A DNA stretch of 7,198 nt from a virus. Its lineage: Duplodnaviria > Heunggongvirae > Uroviricota > Caudoviricetes. The DNA lies in IMG/VR virus record IMGVR_UViG_2698536458_000011; one strand, given 5' to 3'. Below, one piece after another: positions 1 to 7,198 of this stretch. The translations under genes and the position numbers were made by a program. Numbering within the stretch: position 1 is the stretch's first letter; every line of letters starts with the position of its first letter. Below the pieces are notes generated by a model. The model saw nothing but the letters and a program-made list of their open reading frames with translations, did not search any database and was not told where the DNA came from.

Positions 1-58
1 TTGAACCAGCGACCTGGCGATTATGAGTCGCTCGCTCTCACCACTGAGCTAAAGGGCC
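1..58 (-). tRNA. Partial tRNA (5' 58 nt; the 3' end lies beyond the window start), identical to the matching part of the tRNA at 2422..2497; anticodon CAU
   Basis: Bases 1-58 are identical to 2440-2497. The reverse complement gives GGCCCTTTAGCTCAGTGGTGAGAGCGAGCGACTCATAATCGCCAGGTCGCTGGTTCAA, with acceptor, D-arm and CAT anticodon loop in canonical positions. Confidence 0.75.
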
Positions 59-67
59 GGGAGCCGC

Positions 68-96
68 ATAATAACGACGCGTAATTAATTCTTCAA
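68..96 (-). promoter_or_regulatory. Candidate sigma70 promoter for tRNA copy 1 (minus strand -35 TTGAAG, 17-bp spacer, -10 TATTAT)
   Basis: Plus-strand cttcaa at 91-96 and ataata at 68-73; the -10 ends 9 nt upstream of the tRNA 5' end. Same layout as the promoter at 2507..2535. Confidence 0.35.
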
Positions 97-98
97 TA

Positions 99-3454: not shown

Positions 3455-3825
3455 TTTTTGACCTGCTCTTCATGCATTATGGGGTAAATCTTCACCCCCA
3501 GACGTCCACCAGATACTGGCTGACCACGAACGATATTGATTTCATCAAACTGCTCATCGTCCATTAACACTCCCGCATGTGTCAGTGCATCCAGTGGTGC
3601 TTTCAGGATATTGTCCAGGTCACGACGGCGCTTATCCGGTGGCTCTGCAATAATCTTTATCGCCAGTCTTCCGGACAGGCTTAATTTCAGTCGCTGCTGA
3701 CGGACAATAAGCGCCACATCCCGGCGATAACGCTCACCGGCTTTTGATACAAAATATGTGTTGTCACGACGTCGCCAGTAAGTATTCACCGTCGGCGGAT
3801 AAGGTAAAATAAACTCATGGCGCAT
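3451..3825 (-). CDS. rusA: Crossover junction endodeoxyribonuclease RusA (Holliday junction resolvase), 124 aa
   Basis: RusA family hallmarks: LPYPPTVNTYWRRR near the N-terminus, RRRDLDN, DAL..DDEQ, GGRL. AGGAGG Shine-Dalgarno 10 nt upstream of the ATG at 3825. Confidence 0.85.
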   Translation of the reverse strand: MRHEFILPYPPTVNTYWRRRDNTYFVSKAGERYRRDVALIVRQQRLKLSLSGRLAIKIIAEPPDKRRRDLDNILKAPLDALTHAGVLMDDEQFDEINIVRGQPVSGGRLGVKIYPIMHEEQVKK

Positions 3826-4082: not shown

Positions 4083-4206
4083 AAGAAACGCTCCATCTTA
4101 CTGCTGTCAGTTCGTTTATTACTGTATCTGCGCGGATTGCCGGGCTTCATGGGAGTGGAAAGCACCCGTGCACTTTCCTGGTCCACAGGCAGAAAATGTC
4201 CGTAGN

Positions 4207-4365
4207 GGACAGGCTTAATTTCAGCCGCTGCTGGCGAACAATAAGCGCCACTGCCCGGCGATAACGCTCCCCGGCTTTTGATACAAAATATGTGCTGCCA
4301 CGACGACGCCAGTAAGTGTTCACCGTCGGCGGGTAAGGTAAAACAAATTCTATGCGCTCGGTCAT
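4207..4365 (-). pseudogene. Truncated rusA remnant (N-terminal ~52 codons only)
   Basis: The ORF starts MTERIEFVLPYPPTVNTYWRRRGSTYFVSKAGERYRRAVALIVRQQRLKLSLS, then loses RusA similarity exactly at the ambiguous base n4206. DNA 4207-4353 is ~90% identical to 3673-3819. Its ATG directly follows the DUF968 gene stop (TAA-ATG). Confidence 0.75.
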
Positions 4366-5424
4366 TTATGCTTTCCACTTCAGAACACCCGAATTTCTCG
4401 CGTGCATTAAAAAACGAATCAGCAACAACAGCTGACTGCCGTGTTTCTCTTCAAAATCTTTTACTCCGGCATGTAGTTCGTTACGGCATTTACGGCATAA
4501 CGGAATAACAAACAAATCATCAGCCTTTGTTCCCATCCCTCCCAGTCCATGACCAATGATGTGATGCGGATCATCTGCCTGATTGCCACACGTCATGCAT
4601 TTCTGCGTTTTTACCCAGCGCGTGTATACAGGCATCTCTTCCCGTTGTGATTTCTGGCGCTGGAGATACTGAGCCGGTGACTCCGGATCAACGGCAATGC
4701 TGACCACCGTCTTTTCCTGTGGTGGGTTCTGTTGCTGGTGGACGTGAGGCAGTAACGCAATATTTTTTGTGCGCTGCTTCAGTATGCTGGTGGCTGTCTG
4801 CTCTCCCGGTATGATGTCGCTTTCACTGTACACAGAGCGAATTTTTTCCGCACGCAACCCCAGCGAACGACGTAATACCGCTTCCGGTAGCGCGTCCGCC
4901 ACCTGATTGCGGACCGCCCACCAGGATAATTCAGCCAGAGATAATTCACGCTCCTGCGTACCGCTTATTGCGTGACCGATGACGTCAATCATCCATGCTG
5001 ACAGGTTTTGATGAGCAAGTTGCTCGAGTGATTCGGATGTCTGGTCACGCAGCTGGTTGTCGCAGTGCCAGCACAACACCATTGCGCCGGTACCATAACG
5101 GTGAATGACGGTTTCGCTGTGATGATAATCGCCGTGTGGCCACTGGCAGGATTTAATATGGCGCAACAGCCAGTCAGACAATGCACCAGCACCACCAGCA
5201 GCACGAATCACCCGTGCGTTACTGAAAAACGGCAGCAATGTTTTGTCTTCCACCAGCGGCTGGCGAGCGGCAGGAACGACCCCGGACGGCAGATTACGCA
5301 TGCTTTTTGGTTCCGGCTCCACCAGTATTCTGCCGTTATGGAATGCTGACATTGATTCACGGCCTGGCTTAACGATAACCAGACCGAGTTCCGGTACCAG
5401 AACAGGTCGAAGTAATACCCGCAC
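4366..5424 (-). CDS. DUF968/YdfU-like prophage protein, 352 aa, with a C-terminal Cys/His-rich (HNH-like or zinc-ribbon) motif
   Basis: Long ORF with ATG at 5424 preceded by GGAGG (spacing only 2 nt, so the true start may differ). C-terminus CMTCGNQADDPHHIIGHGLGG...CRKCRNELH. Size and position upstream of rusA match YdfU-type proteins of E. coli prophages as I recall them. Confidence 0.75.
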   Translation of the reverse strand: MRVLLRPVLVPELGLVIVKPGRESMSAFHNGRILVEPEPKSMRNLPSGVVPAARQPLVEDKTLLPFFSNARVIRAAGGAGALSDWLLRHIKSCQWPHGDYHHSETVIHRYGTGAMVLCWHCDNQLRDQTSESLEQLAHQNLSAWMIDVIGHAISGTQERELSLAELSWWAVRNQVADALPEAVLRRSLGLRAEKIRSVYSESDIIPGEQTATSILKQRTKNIALLPHVHQQQNPPQEKTVVSIAVDPESPAQYLQRQKSQREEMPVYTRWVKTQKCMTCGNQADDPHHIIGHGLGGMGTKADDLFVIPLCRKCRNELHAGVKDFEEKHGSQLLLLIRFLMHARNSGVLKWKA

Positions 5425-5499
5425 ATTACCTCCAGATCCGTTGCTGGAATGTGCGGGACGGACGCGTTGGCCGTTCGGAGTAAGGGAGCCTGACGGAGA

Positions 5500-5781
5500 T
5501 TATCCAGTGACGGTAGTCGAGGCTAAGGGCTTTTTTAACCTCGCATCCGCGCCTGCGGTAACACTGAATGAGCCATTCGGCCTGTTCTTCAGTGCATGGG
5601 GGATGCTGGTACCAATCAGATTTAAATGCGTGAGAGCGCCGCCCGTGCCTGCTGGCAAAGACGGCTGAATTATCAGAATTGTGTAGTCTGGAAGGCAGTG
5701 GCTGACAATAGCGCCATTCTCAACGCGCACAGTATAGAGGCCATCTTCACTAAAAATTTCACGTAATTCTTCGATTTTCAT
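5500..5781 (-). CDS. Hypothetical prophage protein, 93 aa
   Basis: ATG at 5781 with a strong Shine-Dalgarno (GGAAGGA, 8-nt spacer); same strand as neighbours. The C-terminal half is Gly/Thr/Ala-rich with no recognisable motif. Confidence 0.5.
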   Translation of the reverse strand: MKIEELREIFSEDGLYTVRVENGAIVSHCLPDYTILIIQPSLPAGTGGALTHLNLIGTSIPHALKNRPNGSFSVTAGADARLKKPLASTTVTG

Positions 5782-5863
5782 CAACAGAATCCTTCCAGAT
5801 AAATAGCACTCCCCTGTTCGGGGTCCATCCCTCTTCTCCCTGCGCGCTACTTAAGTATTTTTG

Positions 5864-5893
5864 ATTCTATTCCGGCACCATCTAAAACTTCAA
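5864..5893 (-). promoter_or_regulatory. Candidate sigma70 promoter (minus strand -35 TTGAAG, 18-bp spacer, -10 TAGAAT) upstream of the 93-aa ORF and YdfU-like gene
   Basis: Plus-strand cttcaa at 5888-5893 and attcta at 5864-5869, immediately downstream of the hok terminator and ~80 nt upstream of the ATG at 5781. Confidence 0.3.
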
Positions 5894-5900
5894 ACGCGTT

Positions 5901-5932
5901 GAAAATAAAAACAAAAACCCGCCGAAGCGGGT
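5901..5932 (-). terminator. Rho-independent terminator of the hok mRNA
   Basis: Minus strand reads ACCCGC-TTCG-GCGGGT (5-6 bp GC stem with a UUCG tetraloop) followed by TTTTTGTTTTTATTTT. Confidence 0.8.
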
Positions 5933-6001
5933 TAAGTGTGGGTGCATTGAGGATGCCTGACCCATCAGAGGTGGCGAGGGATTTCTCCCCCGCCTGGTCT
6001 C

Positions 6002-6157
6002 TTACTCCTCAGGTTCGTAAGCTGTGAAGACAGCGACCTCCGTCTGGCCGGTTCGAATTCGTACCTCGCAGAGGTCTTTCCTCGTTACCAGTGCCGTCAC
6101 TATGACGGTTAAACAGATGACGATCAGGGCGATTAACATCGCCTTTTGCTGCTTCAT
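6002..6157 (-). CDS. hok: Hok-family type I toxin (HokD/RelF-like), 51 aa
   Basis: Translation MKQQKAMLIALIVICLTVIVTALVTRKDLCEVRIRTGQTEVAVFTAYEPEE is a canonical Hok sequence (single transmembrane helix, conserved C-terminal Cys). AAGGAG Shine-Dalgarno 9 nt upstream of the ATG at 6157. Confidence 0.9.
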   Translation of the reverse strand: MKQQKAMLIALIVICLTVIVTALVTRKDLCEVRIRTGQTEVAVFTAYEPEE

Positions 6158-6214
6158 AGCCTGCTTCTCCTTGCCTTTCGGCACGTAAGAGGCTAACCTA
6201 GATTTGCCGTTCAT
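6002..6214 (-). CDS. mok: mok-like reading frame (in-frame N-terminally extended, 70 aa) that mediates hok translation
   Basis: ATG at 6214 opens a 70-codon frame that contains hok in frame, the same geometry as known Mok/Hok pairs (e.g. MokC/HokC). GAGG lies ~10 nt upstream. Confidence 0.55.
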   Translation of the reverse strand: MNGKSRLASYVPKGKEKQAMKQQKAMLIALIVICLTVIVTALVTRKDLCEVRIRTGQTEVAVFTAYEPEE

Positions 6215-6333
6215 AGATTGAGCCTCAGATTAATGTTAAGCGTCTTGCCGGACGCGTAATGTTAACTGGGGCTTTTCTCTATCTGCCTTTTGGTGTTCAT
6301 GCCTGAGACAGATAGCCTCAAGCACCCGCTGCA

Positions 6334-6361
6334 ATTCTACTTAACTCTCCTTTTCCCGCAA
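6334..6361 (-). promoter_or_regulatory. Candidate hok/mok promoter (minus strand -35 TTGCGG, 16-bp spacer, -10 TAGAAT)
   Basis: Plus-strand ccgcaa at 6356-6361 and attcta at 6334-6339. The predicted start (~6325-6327) would begin the transcript with GGGUGCUUGAGG, which is complementary to CCUCAAUGCACCC near the 3' end (plus strand 5940-5952), as in hok fold-back inhibition. Confidence 0.45.
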
Positions 6362-6368
6362 ACCGTTT

Positions 6369-6452
6369 TTATCCCCAGCGGCAAATCGAATACACCACCA
6401 GCGCCACCGCCATCGCAATTCCTACCGTTGTTAATGCTTCAGGCCAGGTCAT
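6369..6452 (-). CDS. Putative 27-aa hydrophobic peptide ([27 protein letters not shown])
   Basis: Not in the supplied ORF track (too short). ATG at 6452 with a GGAGGA Shine-Dalgarno 9 nt upstream, overlapping the stop of the 114-aa ORF (ATGA). One predicted transmembrane helix. Ends just upstream of the hok promoter. Confidence 0.4.
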
Positions 6453-6793
6453 CGTAAAATATCCTCCACGCTTATCAGTCCGTTCCGCTCCAGATAACTC
6501 ATCGCCTTATCCGGTAATTTGCAGTCTGGCTTCGCTTTCCTCAGTTGCCAGGTTAACTGCTTTACCAGCATGGTTAACTCATCGACCAGACGCTGATATC
6601 CCACTGGTTTGTATTCATGCAATTTACCGGCTGGCTCTGCTGCCAGCGATACCAGTGCGATTTCCAGAACAGCAATATCCATCTTATATGTGCGGATGAT
6701 GTCATGGTCGATTGTGCCCGGTATGCACAGTCTCTGTGCTTCAATAGTCTCCTCTGCGTGAGCTATTAACTGCTCTCTGGTAAAAGTCGTCAT
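6449..6793 (-). CDS. Hypothetical protein, 114 aa; paralog of the upstream 55-aa ORF
   Basis: ATG at 6793 overlaps the stop of the 55-aa ORF (ATGA). Shares an MTTxT N-terminus and the motif [10 protein letters not shown] with the 55-aa ORF ([10 protein letters not shown]). Plus strand 6633-6661 matches 6836-6864 at 25/29 nt. Confidence 0.65.
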
Positions 6794-6957
6794 GCCGTAG
6801 CCCCTTCTTGATATTTTTCAAACCAGAACACAACCGGCTCTGCTTCCAGCGATGCCAGCGCAATCCGTGCCAGTTCCATTTGTTCACCACGGGTAAGCCC
6901 GTTTTCAAGCGGGTTTTTAATGAACAATTCAATACGTTCTTTGGTAATAGTGGTCAT
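6790..6957 (-). CDS. Hypothetical small protein, 55 aa ([55 protein letters not shown])
   Basis: Not in the supplied ORF track. ATG at 6957 lies 10 nt after the stop of the upstream partial ORF; its stop overlaps the next start (ATGA). Paralogous to the N-terminal half of the 114-aa ORF. Confidence 0.5.
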
Positions 6958-6967
6958 GTGTTACTCC

Positions 6968-7198
6968 TTAACCCGCAGTGCTTTCAACTGATGAGGGGAA
7001 CAAAATCTTTTCATCAAACCCTGCATTCATATCATGAACAGCAACACACCAATCCATCGACGAACGATTATCAAGAGCCTCCATGATTTCATCCATGCGG
7101 CGTAGGTCATACAGGTAAATGCTTTTATCGCCAATGGTGTAAAAGCCAATTTTTTTCGGTGATGGATGAGGTGTACTGGCAATAGCGGACACTACCAT
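6968..7198 (-). CDS. Hypothetical protein, C-terminal 76 codons (probably 5'-truncated by the window edge)
   Basis: Open frame on the gene strand running to the window edge, stop TAA at 6968-6970. The ATG at the edge may be coincidental. No recognisable motif. Confidence 0.5.
   Translation of the reverse strand: MVVSAIASTPHPSPKKIGFYTIGDKSIYLYDLRRMDEIMEALDNRSSMDWCVAVHDMNAGFDEKILFPSSVESTAG

What the first reader, a model, noticed from the sequence alone, without database searches (positions are those of the whole stretch)
5901..6361. Complete mok/hok type I toxin locus with promoter, fold-back complementarity and tetraloop terminator
The 51-aa product matches canonical Hok (HokD/RelF-like) and sits inside a 70-codon in-frame mok frame. 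A -35/-10 pair (TTGCGG/TAGAAT) predicts an mRNA starting GGGUGCUUGAGG. A 13-nt stretch near the 3' end (CCUCAAUGCACCC, plus strand 5940-5952) is complementary to it with one bulge, which matches the fold-back inhibition architecture of hok mRNAs. A UUCG-tetraloop terminator follows. The locus therefore looks intact and expressible rather than decayed, and could stabilise the prophage or act in abortive infection.
Basis: partly seen in the sequence, partly recalled or inferred. Interest (0 to 1): 0.5.

Follow-up and report, generated by a model that had tools for sequence, protein, structure and literature searches.

The report
Intact prophage hok/sok toxin-antitoxin locus
This is a complete copy of the well-known hok/mok/sok RNA-controlled toxin-antitoxin cassette (HokD/HokW type) in a lambda-like prophage; it is real and looks intact, but it is ordinary, since near-identical copies are annotated in most E. 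coli genomes.

Summary
On the minus strand there is a 51-aa Hok ORF inside an in-frame 70-codon mok frame. Its product is 100% identical to E. coli K-12 HokD/RelF. A weak promoter (TTGCGG, 16 nt, TAGAAT) places the mRNA start at G6327. The 5' GGGUGCUUGAGG pairs with CCUCAAUGCACCC (5952-5940) in the minimum-energy fold, and a UUCG-loop terminator follows. The 5'/3' pairing exceeds chance (3 of 5000 shuffled 3' UTRs) and shows compensatory changes across 41 related loci.

A Sok antisense RNA gene lies on the plus strand (about 6206-6280). Its promoter hexamers match those of the experimentally validated sokW.

The locus is about 89% identical over the transcript to hokW-sokW of Sakai prophage Sp5, and 94-98% identical to loci annotated hokD in thousands of E. 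coli genomes. K-12's own hokD is a truncated version of this arrangement, because relBE replaces everything upstream of the hok Shine-Dalgarno.

Verdict: a real, apparently intact member of an already known system. Its biological role is not resolved here. Candidates are lysis assistance on induction, prophage retention or phage exclusion. Interest is low.

The parts
6334..6361 (-). hok/mok mRNA promoter: -35 TTGCGG (6361..6356), 16-nt spacer, -10 TAGAAT (6339..6334)
   Evidence: Read from the sequence. A -10-like hexamer lies at the same distance from the conserved GGG in 41 loci. The stretch is nearly identical to the one upstream of hokW in Sp5. It falls below the threshold of the consensus scan.
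5908..6327 (-). Predicted full-length hok mRNA, about 420 nt. The 5' end at G6327 is inferred; the 3' end in the T-run is approximate.
   Evidence: The Rfam RF01794 match begins at 6327. The fold has z=-6.8. The terminator was found.
6316..6327 (-). tac element (5' GGGUGCUUGAGG). It pairs with fbi in the full-length mRNA and with ucb in the 3'-truncated mRNA.
   Evidence: Folds; covariation.
6299..6325 (-). Predicted 5' hairpin of the nascent transcript (nt 3-29, -16.9 kcal/mol), comparable to the metastable hairpin of R1 hok mRNA
   Evidence: Folds of the first 30-50 nt. The comparison with R1 is from my own knowledge of the literature.
6266..6273 (-). ucb (AGCCCCAG, mRNA nt 55-62). It pairs with dcb in the full-length mRNA and with tac after 3' truncation.
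   Evidence: Compensatory AU<->GC changes occur at pairs 62/102, 63/101 and 66/97 of alignment A1.
6221..6228 (-). dcb (CUGAGGCU, nt 100-107). It contains the mok Shine-Dalgarno GAGG (6226..6223).
6189..6226 (-). Sok-target (sokT) hairpin, which forms in the truncated mRNA and contains the mok start codon (6214..6212)
   Evidence: Fold of 6327->5953. This is also the most variable segment among close relatives.
6002..6214 (-). mok reading frame, 70 codons, in frame with hok and sharing its stop codon
   Evidence: Sp5 annotates the same kind of frame as 'regulatory protein MokC for HokC'.
6002..6157 (-). hok toxin gene, 51 aa; the hok Shine-Dalgarno AAGGAG lies at 6172..6167
   Evidence: Pfam HOK_GEF E=1e-23. 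The product is 51/51 identical to K-12 HokD and 47/51 identical to HokW.
5940..5952 (-). fbi element (CCUCAAUGCACCC), complementary to tac with one bulged U
5901..5933 (-). Intrinsic terminator: stem AACCCGC/GCGGGUU with a UUCG loop (5933..5916), then a T-run
   Evidence: It is conserved in K-12 Qin.
6171..6199 (+). Sok promoter: -35 TTGCCT (6171-6176), 17-nt spacer, -10 TAACCT (6194-6199). It lies inside mok and overlaps the hok Shine-Dalgarno region on the other strand.
   Evidence: Window 6169-6198 is identical (30/30) to probe YO-597 of the hokW-sokW study. That study's promoter-less mutant primer YO-421 changes this -10 hexamer (PMC8621323).
6206..6280 (+). Predicted Sok antisense RNA, about 75 nt with approximate ends. 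It has a single-stranded 5' tail complementary to the mok start region, a long hairpin (6220-6274) and a U-rich tail.
   Evidence: Fold -32.9 kcal/mol, z=-5.5. The architecture matches R1 Sok (my own knowledge). No transcript data are available.

Best explanation
This is an intact hok/mok/sok type I toxin-antitoxin cassette of the HokD/HokW subtype. It sits in the early-right (replication-to-Q) region of a lambda-like prophage.

Proposed mechanism, by analogy with R1 hok/sok:
1. A weak constitutive promoter makes a stable mRNA of about 420 nt.
2. The mRNA's 5' end (tac) pairs with a 3' element (fbi), and ucb pairs with dcb over the mok Shine-Dalgarno. The full-length mRNA is therefore neither translated nor bound by Sok.
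3. Slow 3' trimming removes fbi. The 5' end then re-pairs with ucb, which exposes the mok start in a target hairpin.
4. While the DNA is present, the short-lived antisense Sok RNA, made from a convergent promoter inside mok, binds that hairpin. This blocks mok translation and so blocks the translationally coupled hok, and the duplex is destroyed.
5. If Sok synthesis stops, through loss of the element, shut-off of host transcription or prophage induction, Hok is made. It inserts in the inner membrane and depolarises or lyses the cell.

Shown here: all the sequence elements, the predicted alternative folds, and covariation supporting them. Inferred: transcription, processing, coupling, toxicity in this host, and the biological role.
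For: - Family membership: Hok matches Pfam HOK_GEF and is 100% identical to K-12 HokD. HokD was used as a toxic control in bioRxiv 10.1101/2025.08.07.668861. Rfam RF01794 scores 112 bits over the whole leader, starting at 6327.
- Folds: the full-length fold contains tac-fbi and ucb-dcb. The fold without the last 45 nt switches to tac-ucb and forms the target hairpin around the mok start.
- Covariation, whole structure: on 41 loci from Escherichia, Shigella, Kluyvera, Photorhabdus, Pantoea, Erwinia and others, 85% of cells are paired, against 38-45% when partners are slid. There are 41 pairs with double changes, against 25 in shuffles (0 of 500 reach the observed value) and 13-20 in the slid versions.
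- Covariation, tac-fbi: position 4 of tac pairs as U-A in 25 loci, C-G in 12, U-G in 4, and C-A never. A 12-bp tac/fbi duplex is kept in 22 of 25 distinct combinations.
- Sok: its promoter and hairpin are present and its promoter region is identical to that of sokW. For sokW, antitoxin activity, loss on mitomycin C treatment and HokW membrane localisation were shown experimentally (PMC8621323).
- Similarity to known loci: the locus is 372/416 identical to Sp5 hokW over the transcript. It matches hokD-annotated loci at up to 98.4% identity, and 4933 of 5426 complete E. coli genomes hold a match to the query. It also matches 78 phage records.
Against: - No expression data exist for this copy.
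- Both promoters are weak by consensus. The hok -35 matches 3 of 6 positions and the Sok -10 (TAACCT) matches 3 of 6, and neither passed the consensus scan.
[quoted passage not shown] An intact-looking locus may therefore still be phenotypically silent.
- The distal half of tac-fbi shows 11 'unpaired' cells in the fixed alignment. These come from a one-base register shift in Photorhabdus, which lacks the bulge, and they disappear in per-sequence duplexes.
- The covariation alignment was anchored on a structure derived from this sequence, which favours it somewhat.
Confidence: 0.9

Rival explanations
1. Lysis-assist module. The cassette is a phage accessory gene whose main job is to help the prophage's own lytic cycle. 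On induction Sok disappears and Hok is made. Membrane damage then advances or enhances lysis and phage release. The cassette would not act mainly as an addiction or defence system.
For: - For the close relative hokW-sokW, mitomycin C removes sokW RNA and induces HokW in a RecA-dependent way, and deleting the locus halves phage release (PMC8621323). This relative shares 47/51 Hok residues, the same promoter regions and 372/416 transcript identity.
- In the window, and in four other prophage or phage contexts plus K-12 Qin, the locus lies between the replication genes and Q and is co-oriented with them.
- No intrinsic terminator was found between the upstream ORFs and the hok promoter. Early transcription on induction could therefore run across the convergent Sok promoter. 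This last step is inference.
Against: - The effect in Sp5 was only two-fold and was measured in one phage.
- In Sp5 the locus is not in the nin region. It lies near the right prophage end, so the position argument does not transfer directly.
- This role is compatible with the best explanation rather than exclusive of it. It concerns biological role, not molecular mechanism.
Confidence: 0.4
2. Prophage-retention (addiction) or anti-phage abortive-infection module. Under this reading, loss of the prophage, or shut-off of host transcription by an infecting lytic phage, depletes unstable Sok. The stable hok mRMA pool is then translated and kills the cell.
For: - The full set of elements needed for the R1-type delayed-activation mechanism is present.
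- R1 hok/sok reduces T4 plating efficiency and plaque size, as cited in PMC8621323.
- hok genes are about four-fold enriched in prophages (bioRxiv 10.1101/2025.08.07.668861).
Against: - Chromosomal hok loci tested so far did not give post-segregational killing.
- There is no direct test for any hokD-type prophage locus.
Confidence: 0.3
3. Silent relic. The cassette looks intact but is functionally inert in its host, for example because the hok promoter is too weak or Sok is in permanent excess. It would persist only by hitch-hiking on a mosaic prophage.
For: - Both promoters are weak by consensus.
- Several relatives are visibly decayed. K-12 hokD has lost everything upstream of the hok Shine-Dalgarno. 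L022, L046 and L050 have lost fbi.
- The prophage segment in the window contains scaffold joins and a rusA fragment.
Against: - Every regulatory element is preserved, and compensatory changes across genera indicate purifying selection on the RNA structure.
- The near-identical hokW-sokW is active (PMC8621323).
- The Hok ORF is identical to a toxic protein.
Confidence: 0.1

Closest known systems
hokW-sokW of Sakai prophage Sp5 (E. coli O157:H7), a type I TA system characterised by Takada et al. 2021 (PMC8621323)
   Same: - The 60 nt upstream of the mRNA start match at 56 of 60 positions, the hexamers of the proposed hok promoter are the same, and the tac element is identical.
- The Sok promoter region is identical: window 6169-6198 equals probe YO-597.
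- The mok frame is likewise in frame with hok.
- 47/51 Hok residues and 372/416 transcript positions are identical.
   Different: - The mok N-terminus and Sok 5'-tail target differ (AUGAACGGCAAAUCU here, AUGCUGAACACAUGU in Sp5).
- The Hok C-terminus is TAYEPEE (HokD type) here and VDYESEK in HokW.
- The sequence after fbi, including the terminator, is unrelated.
- In Sp5 the locus lies near the right end of the prophage, not between the replication genes and Q.
hokD (relF) of the cryptic prophage Qin, E. coli K-12
   Same: - The Hok protein is 100% identical.
- The DNA is near-identical from the hok Shine-Dalgarno through fbi and the terminator into the rem-like gene.
- The neighbours are the same: rem, ydfU/DUF968 and Q.
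   Different: K-12 lacks the hok promoter, tac, ucb/dcb, the mok start, the Sok target and the Sok promoter. relB-relE occupies that position, and hokD is the third gene of that operon. The window carries the complete arrangement.
hok/sok (parB) of plasmid R1, the paradigm of the family
   Same: - The architecture and regulatory logic are the same: tac/fbi, ucb/dcb, mok-hok overlap and a convergent Sok promoter inside mok.
- Sok has a single-stranded 5' tail followed by a hairpin.
- Both have a terminator hairpin after fbi (the R1 features are from my own knowledge of the Gerdes laboratory's work).
   Different: - Hok identity to R1 Hok is only about 44%, the figure given for HokW in PMC8621323.
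- In R1, mok is in a different frame from hok (my own reading of the R1 sequence from memory); here mok is in frame.
- The Sok hairpin here carries an extra tip of about 20 nt.
- R1 hok/sok is on a plasmid and has proven post-segregational killing; this locus is on a prophage.
hokC (gef)/mokC/sokC and other chromosomal hok loci of Escherichia
   Same: They have the same tac sequence GGGUGCUUGAGG, an in-frame mok, and an fbi of the type YUUCAACGCACCC (L021-L031).
   Different: Hok/Mok identity is about 68-81%. They have a shorter ucb-dcb hairpin, and they lie in chromosomal intergenic positions rather than in a prophage.

Membership tests
[quoted passage not shown] | Small (about 50 aa) hydrophobic Hok/Gef toxin ORF | tested here: met
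   Pfam PF01848 HOK_GEF at E=1.2e-23 over profile positions 1-42 of 42. PHROG 251 at E=2.8e-33. 51/51 identical to K-12 HokD.
[quoted passage not shown] | Overlapping mok reading frame that starts upstream of hok and has its own Shine-Dalgarno | tested here: met
   The 70-codon ORF at 6214..6002 is in frame with hok, with GAGG 8 nt upstream of its ATG. Translational coupling itself cannot be tested here.
[quoted passage not shown] | Antisense Sok RNA gene convergent with hok, complementary to the mok translation initiation region, with its own promoter and terminator hairpin | tested here: met
   Plus strand: TTGCCT, 17 nt, TAACCT (6171-6199); hairpin 6220-6274 at -32.9 kcal/mol and z=-5.5; U-rich tail. 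The promoter region is identical to that of the experimentally validated sokW. This is sequence-level evidence only.
[quoted passage not shown] | Long-range 5'-3' pairing (tac-fbi) in the full-length mRNA | tested here: met
   It is present in the minimum-energy fold. 3 of 5000 shuffled 3' UTRs reach its energy. Compensatory U-A/C-G and G-C/A-U changes occur, and 22 of 25 distinct combinations keep 12 bp.
[quoted passage not shown] | Alternative pairings ucb-dcb (inactive form) and tac-ucb (active, 3'-truncated form) that expose the Sok target hairpin | tested here: met
   The predicted folds of the full-length and truncated RNA switch as expected. The ucb-dcb helix has 7 pairs with changes on both sides.
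[quoted passage not shown] | Match to the curated covariance model of the hok leader/Sok region (Rfam RF01794) | tested here: met
   112.4 bits against a gathering score of 59, E=1e-25, model positions 1-157 of 157. The model matches in the hok-mRNA sense orientation.
[quoted passage not shown] | Slow 3' exonucleolytic processing of the mRNA, and RNase III cleavage of the Sok-mRNA duplex | not testable with these tools
   This needs Northern blots or RNA-seq after rifampicin treatment. For hokW, truncated RNAs and partial RNase III/Hfq dependence were reported (PMC8621323).
[quoted passage not shown] | Membrane-depolarising toxicity of Hok that is neutralised by Sok | not testable with these tools
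   The identical protein HokD served as a toxic control in bioRxiv 10.1101/2025.08.07.668861. Toxicity and neutralisation by Sok were shown for HokW/sokW. Neither was tested for this copy.

The most novel reading that the evidence does not exclude
Two ideas are not excluded by the evidence.

1. Induction sensor. Because the cassette is co-oriented with the upstream phage operon and no terminator separates them, read-through transcription on induction could occlude the convergent Sok promoter. This would be the unexplained trigger for the RecA-dependent loss of sokW and production of HokW reported for Sp5. The cassette would then be hard-wired as an induction sensor rather than an addiction module.

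2. Private antitoxin specificity. The only hypervariable stretch of the leader among close relatives is the mok start/Sok 5'-tail target (window 6197-6223), at 59-62% identity against 96-100% in the flanks. This could give each of the several hok copies in a genome its own antitoxin specificity.
Probability: 0.25. Interest if true: 0.45.

Novelty: already known. Interest (0 to 1): 0.15.

Why it matters
It matters little beyond correct annotation. The locus should be labelled hok/mok/sok (HokD/HokW type) with its Sok RNA, which routine annotation omits; only 'hokD' is annotated in the matching RefSeq genomes.

It is a clean example of the complete arrangement from which K-12's relBE-hokD operon was derived by replacement of the 5' regulatory half. 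It would therefore be a reasonable template for testing what prophage-borne hok/sok cassettes do, whether lysis assistance, retention or phage exclusion.

Tried and rejected
- **Consensus promoter scan.** It flagged neither the hok nor the Sok promoter, and reported only a TTGAAG-18-TAGAAT site downstream of the terminator. I therefore based the promoter calls on positional conservation across loci and on the sokW experiments.
- **Source of the window.** No exact match turned up. The best hits were 98.4% identity over the 501-nt locus in E. coli complete genomes, 94.6% identity over 87% of the whole window, and 96% for Mok in the species-representative genomes. I did not pursue this further.
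- **hokW position in Sp5.** I expected it in the nin region. It is not there; it lies near the right prophage end. This weakens my generalisation about position.
- **Fixed-column pair counts for the distal tac-fbi half.** They looked poor for Photorhabdus, with 11 unpaired cells. This was a one-base register artefact caused by the missing bulge, and per-sequence duplexes resolved it.
- **tRNA-like hairpin around the UACG editing motif.** None was predicted.
- **Searches not run.** I did not run the protein structure prediction or the large homology searches, because a 51-aa peptide identical to HokD needs neither.

Full report
**What is at 5901-6361**

On the minus strand the window encodes a 51-aa ORF (6157..6002). 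It lies inside an in-frame 70-codon ORF (6214..6002). The short product matches Pfam HOK_GEF over the whole profile (E=1e-23) and PHROG 251 'MokW-like host killing' (E=3e-33). It is 51/51 identical to HokD (RelF) of E. coli K-12.

Upstream lie TTGCGG (6361..6356), a 16-nt spacer and TAGAAT (6339..6334), and G6327 is 7 nt further on. Downstream of the stop codon are CCUCAAUGCACCC (5952..5940) and a terminator, AACCCGC-UUCG-GCGGGUU plus a T-run (5933..5916).

**Is the start site credible?**

Two independent lines support it.

- The Rfam covariance model RF01794 matches at 112 bits (gathering score 59) over its full length, and its first position falls on 6327. This model is called 'sok', but it matches in the hok-mRNA sense. 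It runs from GGGUGCUUGA to the hok AUG, so it identifies the hok leader, not the antisense RNA itself.
- In 41 related loci from several genera the conserved sequence begins abruptly at GGG. A TAnnnT-type hexamer (TAGAAT, TATAAT, TACAAT, TATATT and others) always lies 6 nt upstream, while the DNA further upstream is unrelated between sub-families.

The generic promoter scan did not report this promoter, because its -35 matches only 3 of 6 positions. A weak hok promoter is what the R1 paradigm leads one to expect (my own knowledge).

**Is the 5'/3' complementarity more than chance?**

Yes, on four counts.

- The minimum-energy fold of the 420-nt transcript pairs nt 1-12 with 5952..5940, as 12 bp with one bulged U. 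The whole fold is far more stable than shuffles (-169.2 kcal/mol, z=-6.8).
- The tac-fbi duplex is -21.1 kcal/mol, against -12.5 +/- 2.05 for shuffled 3' UTRs, and 3 of 5000 shuffles reach it. It is the best partner for the 5' end anywhere in the mRNA.
- Across 41 loci the pairing shows compensatory change. Tac position 4 pairs as U-A in 25 loci, C-G in 12 and U-G in 4, and never as C-A. GAGG/CCUC becomes GAGA/UCUC in Photorhabdus and GAAG/CUUC in Citrobacter youngae.
- Of 25 distinct tac/fbi combinations, 22 keep a 12-bp duplex. The three exceptions have visibly lost the 3' element.

For the whole mapped structure, 85% of cells are paired, against 38-45% when partners are slid by 1-3 columns. 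There are 41 pairs with changes on both sides, against 25 in shuffles (0 of 500 reach it) and 13-20 in the slid versions. One caveat is that the structure was derived from this sequence, which favours it somewhat.

The antitoxin is present. On the plus strand, inside mok, lie TTGCCT (6171-6176), a 17-nt spacer and TAACCT (6194-6199). These are followed by a stretch that folds as a single-stranded 5' tail, a long hairpin (6220-6274) and a U-rich tail (-32.9 kcal/mol, z=-5.5). The 5' tail is complementary to the mok start codon and its surroundings.

Window 6169-6198 is identical (30/30) to probe YO-597 of the hokW-sokW study. The primer that study used to make its 'promoter-less' sokW changes exactly this -10 hexamer. 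Sok antitoxin activity from this promoter was shown there.

The other family-specific RNA elements are also present.

- In the full-length fold, ucb (6273..6266) pairs with dcb (6228..6221), covering the mok Shine-Dalgarno.
- When the last 45 nt are removed, the fold switches. The 5' end pairs with ucb, and a hairpin containing the mok start (6226..6189) forms.
- The ucb-dcb helix has seven pairs with compensatory changes.
- The first 30 nt alone form a stable hairpin (-16.9 kcal/mol), like the metastable hairpin described for R1 hok mRNA (my own knowledge).
- The hok Shine-Dalgarno is sequestered by the nearly invariant CUCUU upstream of it. This fits translational coupling to mok.

**Context**

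The window is part of a lambda-like prophage. All genes lie on the minus strand, in this order:

- unknown phage ORFs
- hok/sok
- a rem-like ORF
- a DUF968/YdfU gene
- rusA
- antiterminator Q
- a tRNA
- a DNA methylase

.

The same position between replication genes and Q, co-oriented, is seen in an E. coli prophage, phage mEp460, phage Tritos, PPompW and K-12 Qin.

The locus matches places annotated hokD at up to 98.4% identity, and 4933 of 5426 complete E. coli genomes hold a match to the query (median two places per genome). It also matches 78 phage records, including Stx2 phages.

**Relation to known loci**

- *K-12 hokD.* DNA similarity to the window starts at the hok Shine-Dalgarno and runs through fbi and the terminator into rem. 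Everything upstream (hok promoter, tac, ucb/dcb, mok start, Sok target, Sok promoter) is replaced by relB-relE. The window therefore carries the complete form of the locus of which K-12 retains only the 3' half.
- *hokW-sokW of Sp5.* The window is 372/416 identical over the transcript. Promoter regions are the same and 47/51 Hok residues are identical. The differences are concentrated in the mok start/Sok-tail target, the Hok C-terminus and the region after fbi. In Sp5 the locus lies near the right prophage end, not in the nin region.

**How it most likely works**

I commit to the R1-type mechanism (confidence 0.9 for the molecular mechanism).

1. A stable, translationally closed full-length mRNA is made.
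2. Slow 3' trimming triggers refolding.
3. Sok binds the exposed mok initiation hairpin and blocks mok translation, and so blocks hok translation.
4. Hok is produced when the unstable Sok is no longer replenished.

The elements, the alternative folds and the covariation are shown here. Transcription, processing, coupling and toxicity are inferred from the family and from hokW-sokW.

The biological role is less certain.

- The only direct experiment on a close prophage relative points to assistance of lysis and a two-fold gain in phage release on induction (PMC8621323).
- Prophage retention or exclusion of lytic phages remains possible. However, chromosomal hok loci tested earlier did not show post-segregational killing.

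One speculative mechanistic link follows from the anatomy. No terminator separates the co-oriented upstream ORFs from the cassette. Read-through on induction could therefore occlude the convergent Sok promoter, which would explain the unexplained RecA-dependent loss of sokW.

**Novelty and verdict**

It belongs to a system known since the 1980s. Its sub-type has been characterised experimentally and is annotated in thousands of genomes. It is already known, and interest is low (0.15).

Noticed in passing
window 1200, 1861-2337, 4206: There are single N bases at 1200 and 4206 and a run of 477 N. A 151-nt copy of the rusA 5' part (4207-4357, 89% identical to 3673-3823) begins immediately after the N at 4206. 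The window therefore looks like a scaffold of joined or masked pieces. The hok locus lies in an uninterrupted piece (4207-7198).
   Followed up: partly
window 1-98 and 2440-2537: Two copies (93% identical) of a tRNA with anticodon CAU, plus its flank, bracket the DNA methylase gene and the N-run. The first copy is cut by the window edge. In related prophages a tRNA cluster follows Q.
   Followed up: no
window 6369-6452 (- strand): There is an unannotated 27-codon hydrophobic ORF ([27 protein letters not shown]). Its ATG overlaps the stop codon of the upstream 114-aa ORF (ATGA), and it ends 8 nt before the hok -35. It has no PHROG match. The same sequence precedes hokW in Sp5 (primer YO-432), so it seems to travel with the cassette.
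   Followed up: partly
window 6016-6019 (- strand; Hok Tyr47 codon UAC plus G): The Tyr47 codon is followed by G, giving UACG. This is the TadA A-to-I editing motif reported to recode Tyr to Cys in hokB and, at this position, in hokC/D/E (bioRxiv 10.1101/2025.08.07.668861). TACG is kept in 38 of 41 related loci, and the other three have TGC (Cys) hard-coded. No local tRNA-like hairpin was predicted.
   Followed up: partly
window 6197-6223 (mRNA nt 105-131): Among 11 closely related hokD-type loci, the mok start/Sok 5'-tail target is the most divergent part of the leader, at 59-62% pairwise identity against 96-100% in the flanks. This is as expected if each copy keeps a private Sok-mRNA recognition sequence.
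   Followed up: partly
window 5500-5784 (- strand): The 94-aa ORF downstream of hok resembles K-12 Rem over about its first 30 residues and then diverges (PHROG 340 matches only residues 1-30). It may be a recombination junction or a frameshifted rem.
   Followed up: no
window 5864-5893 (- strand): A promoter-like site, TTGAAG-18-TAGAAT, lies just after the hok terminator and upstream of the rem-like ORF. About one such site is expected by chance in the region scanned, but the stretch is conserved in K-12 Qin.
   Followed up: no
window 6152-6327; Rfam RF01794: The Rfam family named 'sok antitoxin' matches on the hok-mRNA strand, from the mRNA 5' end to the hok AUG. A hit therefore marks the hok leader, and the true Sok RNA lies on the opposite strand. 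Automated annotation based on this hit would give the antitoxin the wrong strand and extent.
   Followed up: yes
loci L004, L010, L037, L048, L056, L063; phage hit H28: Near-identical hok loci appear on short contigs of assemblies labelled Veillonella parvula, Xanthomonas pisi, Acinetobacter idrijaensis, Collinsella, Haemophilus and 'Candidatus Scatousia', and in an 'Actinobacillus phage' record. These are most likely E. coli prophage contamination or mis-binning rather than real host range.
   Followed up: no
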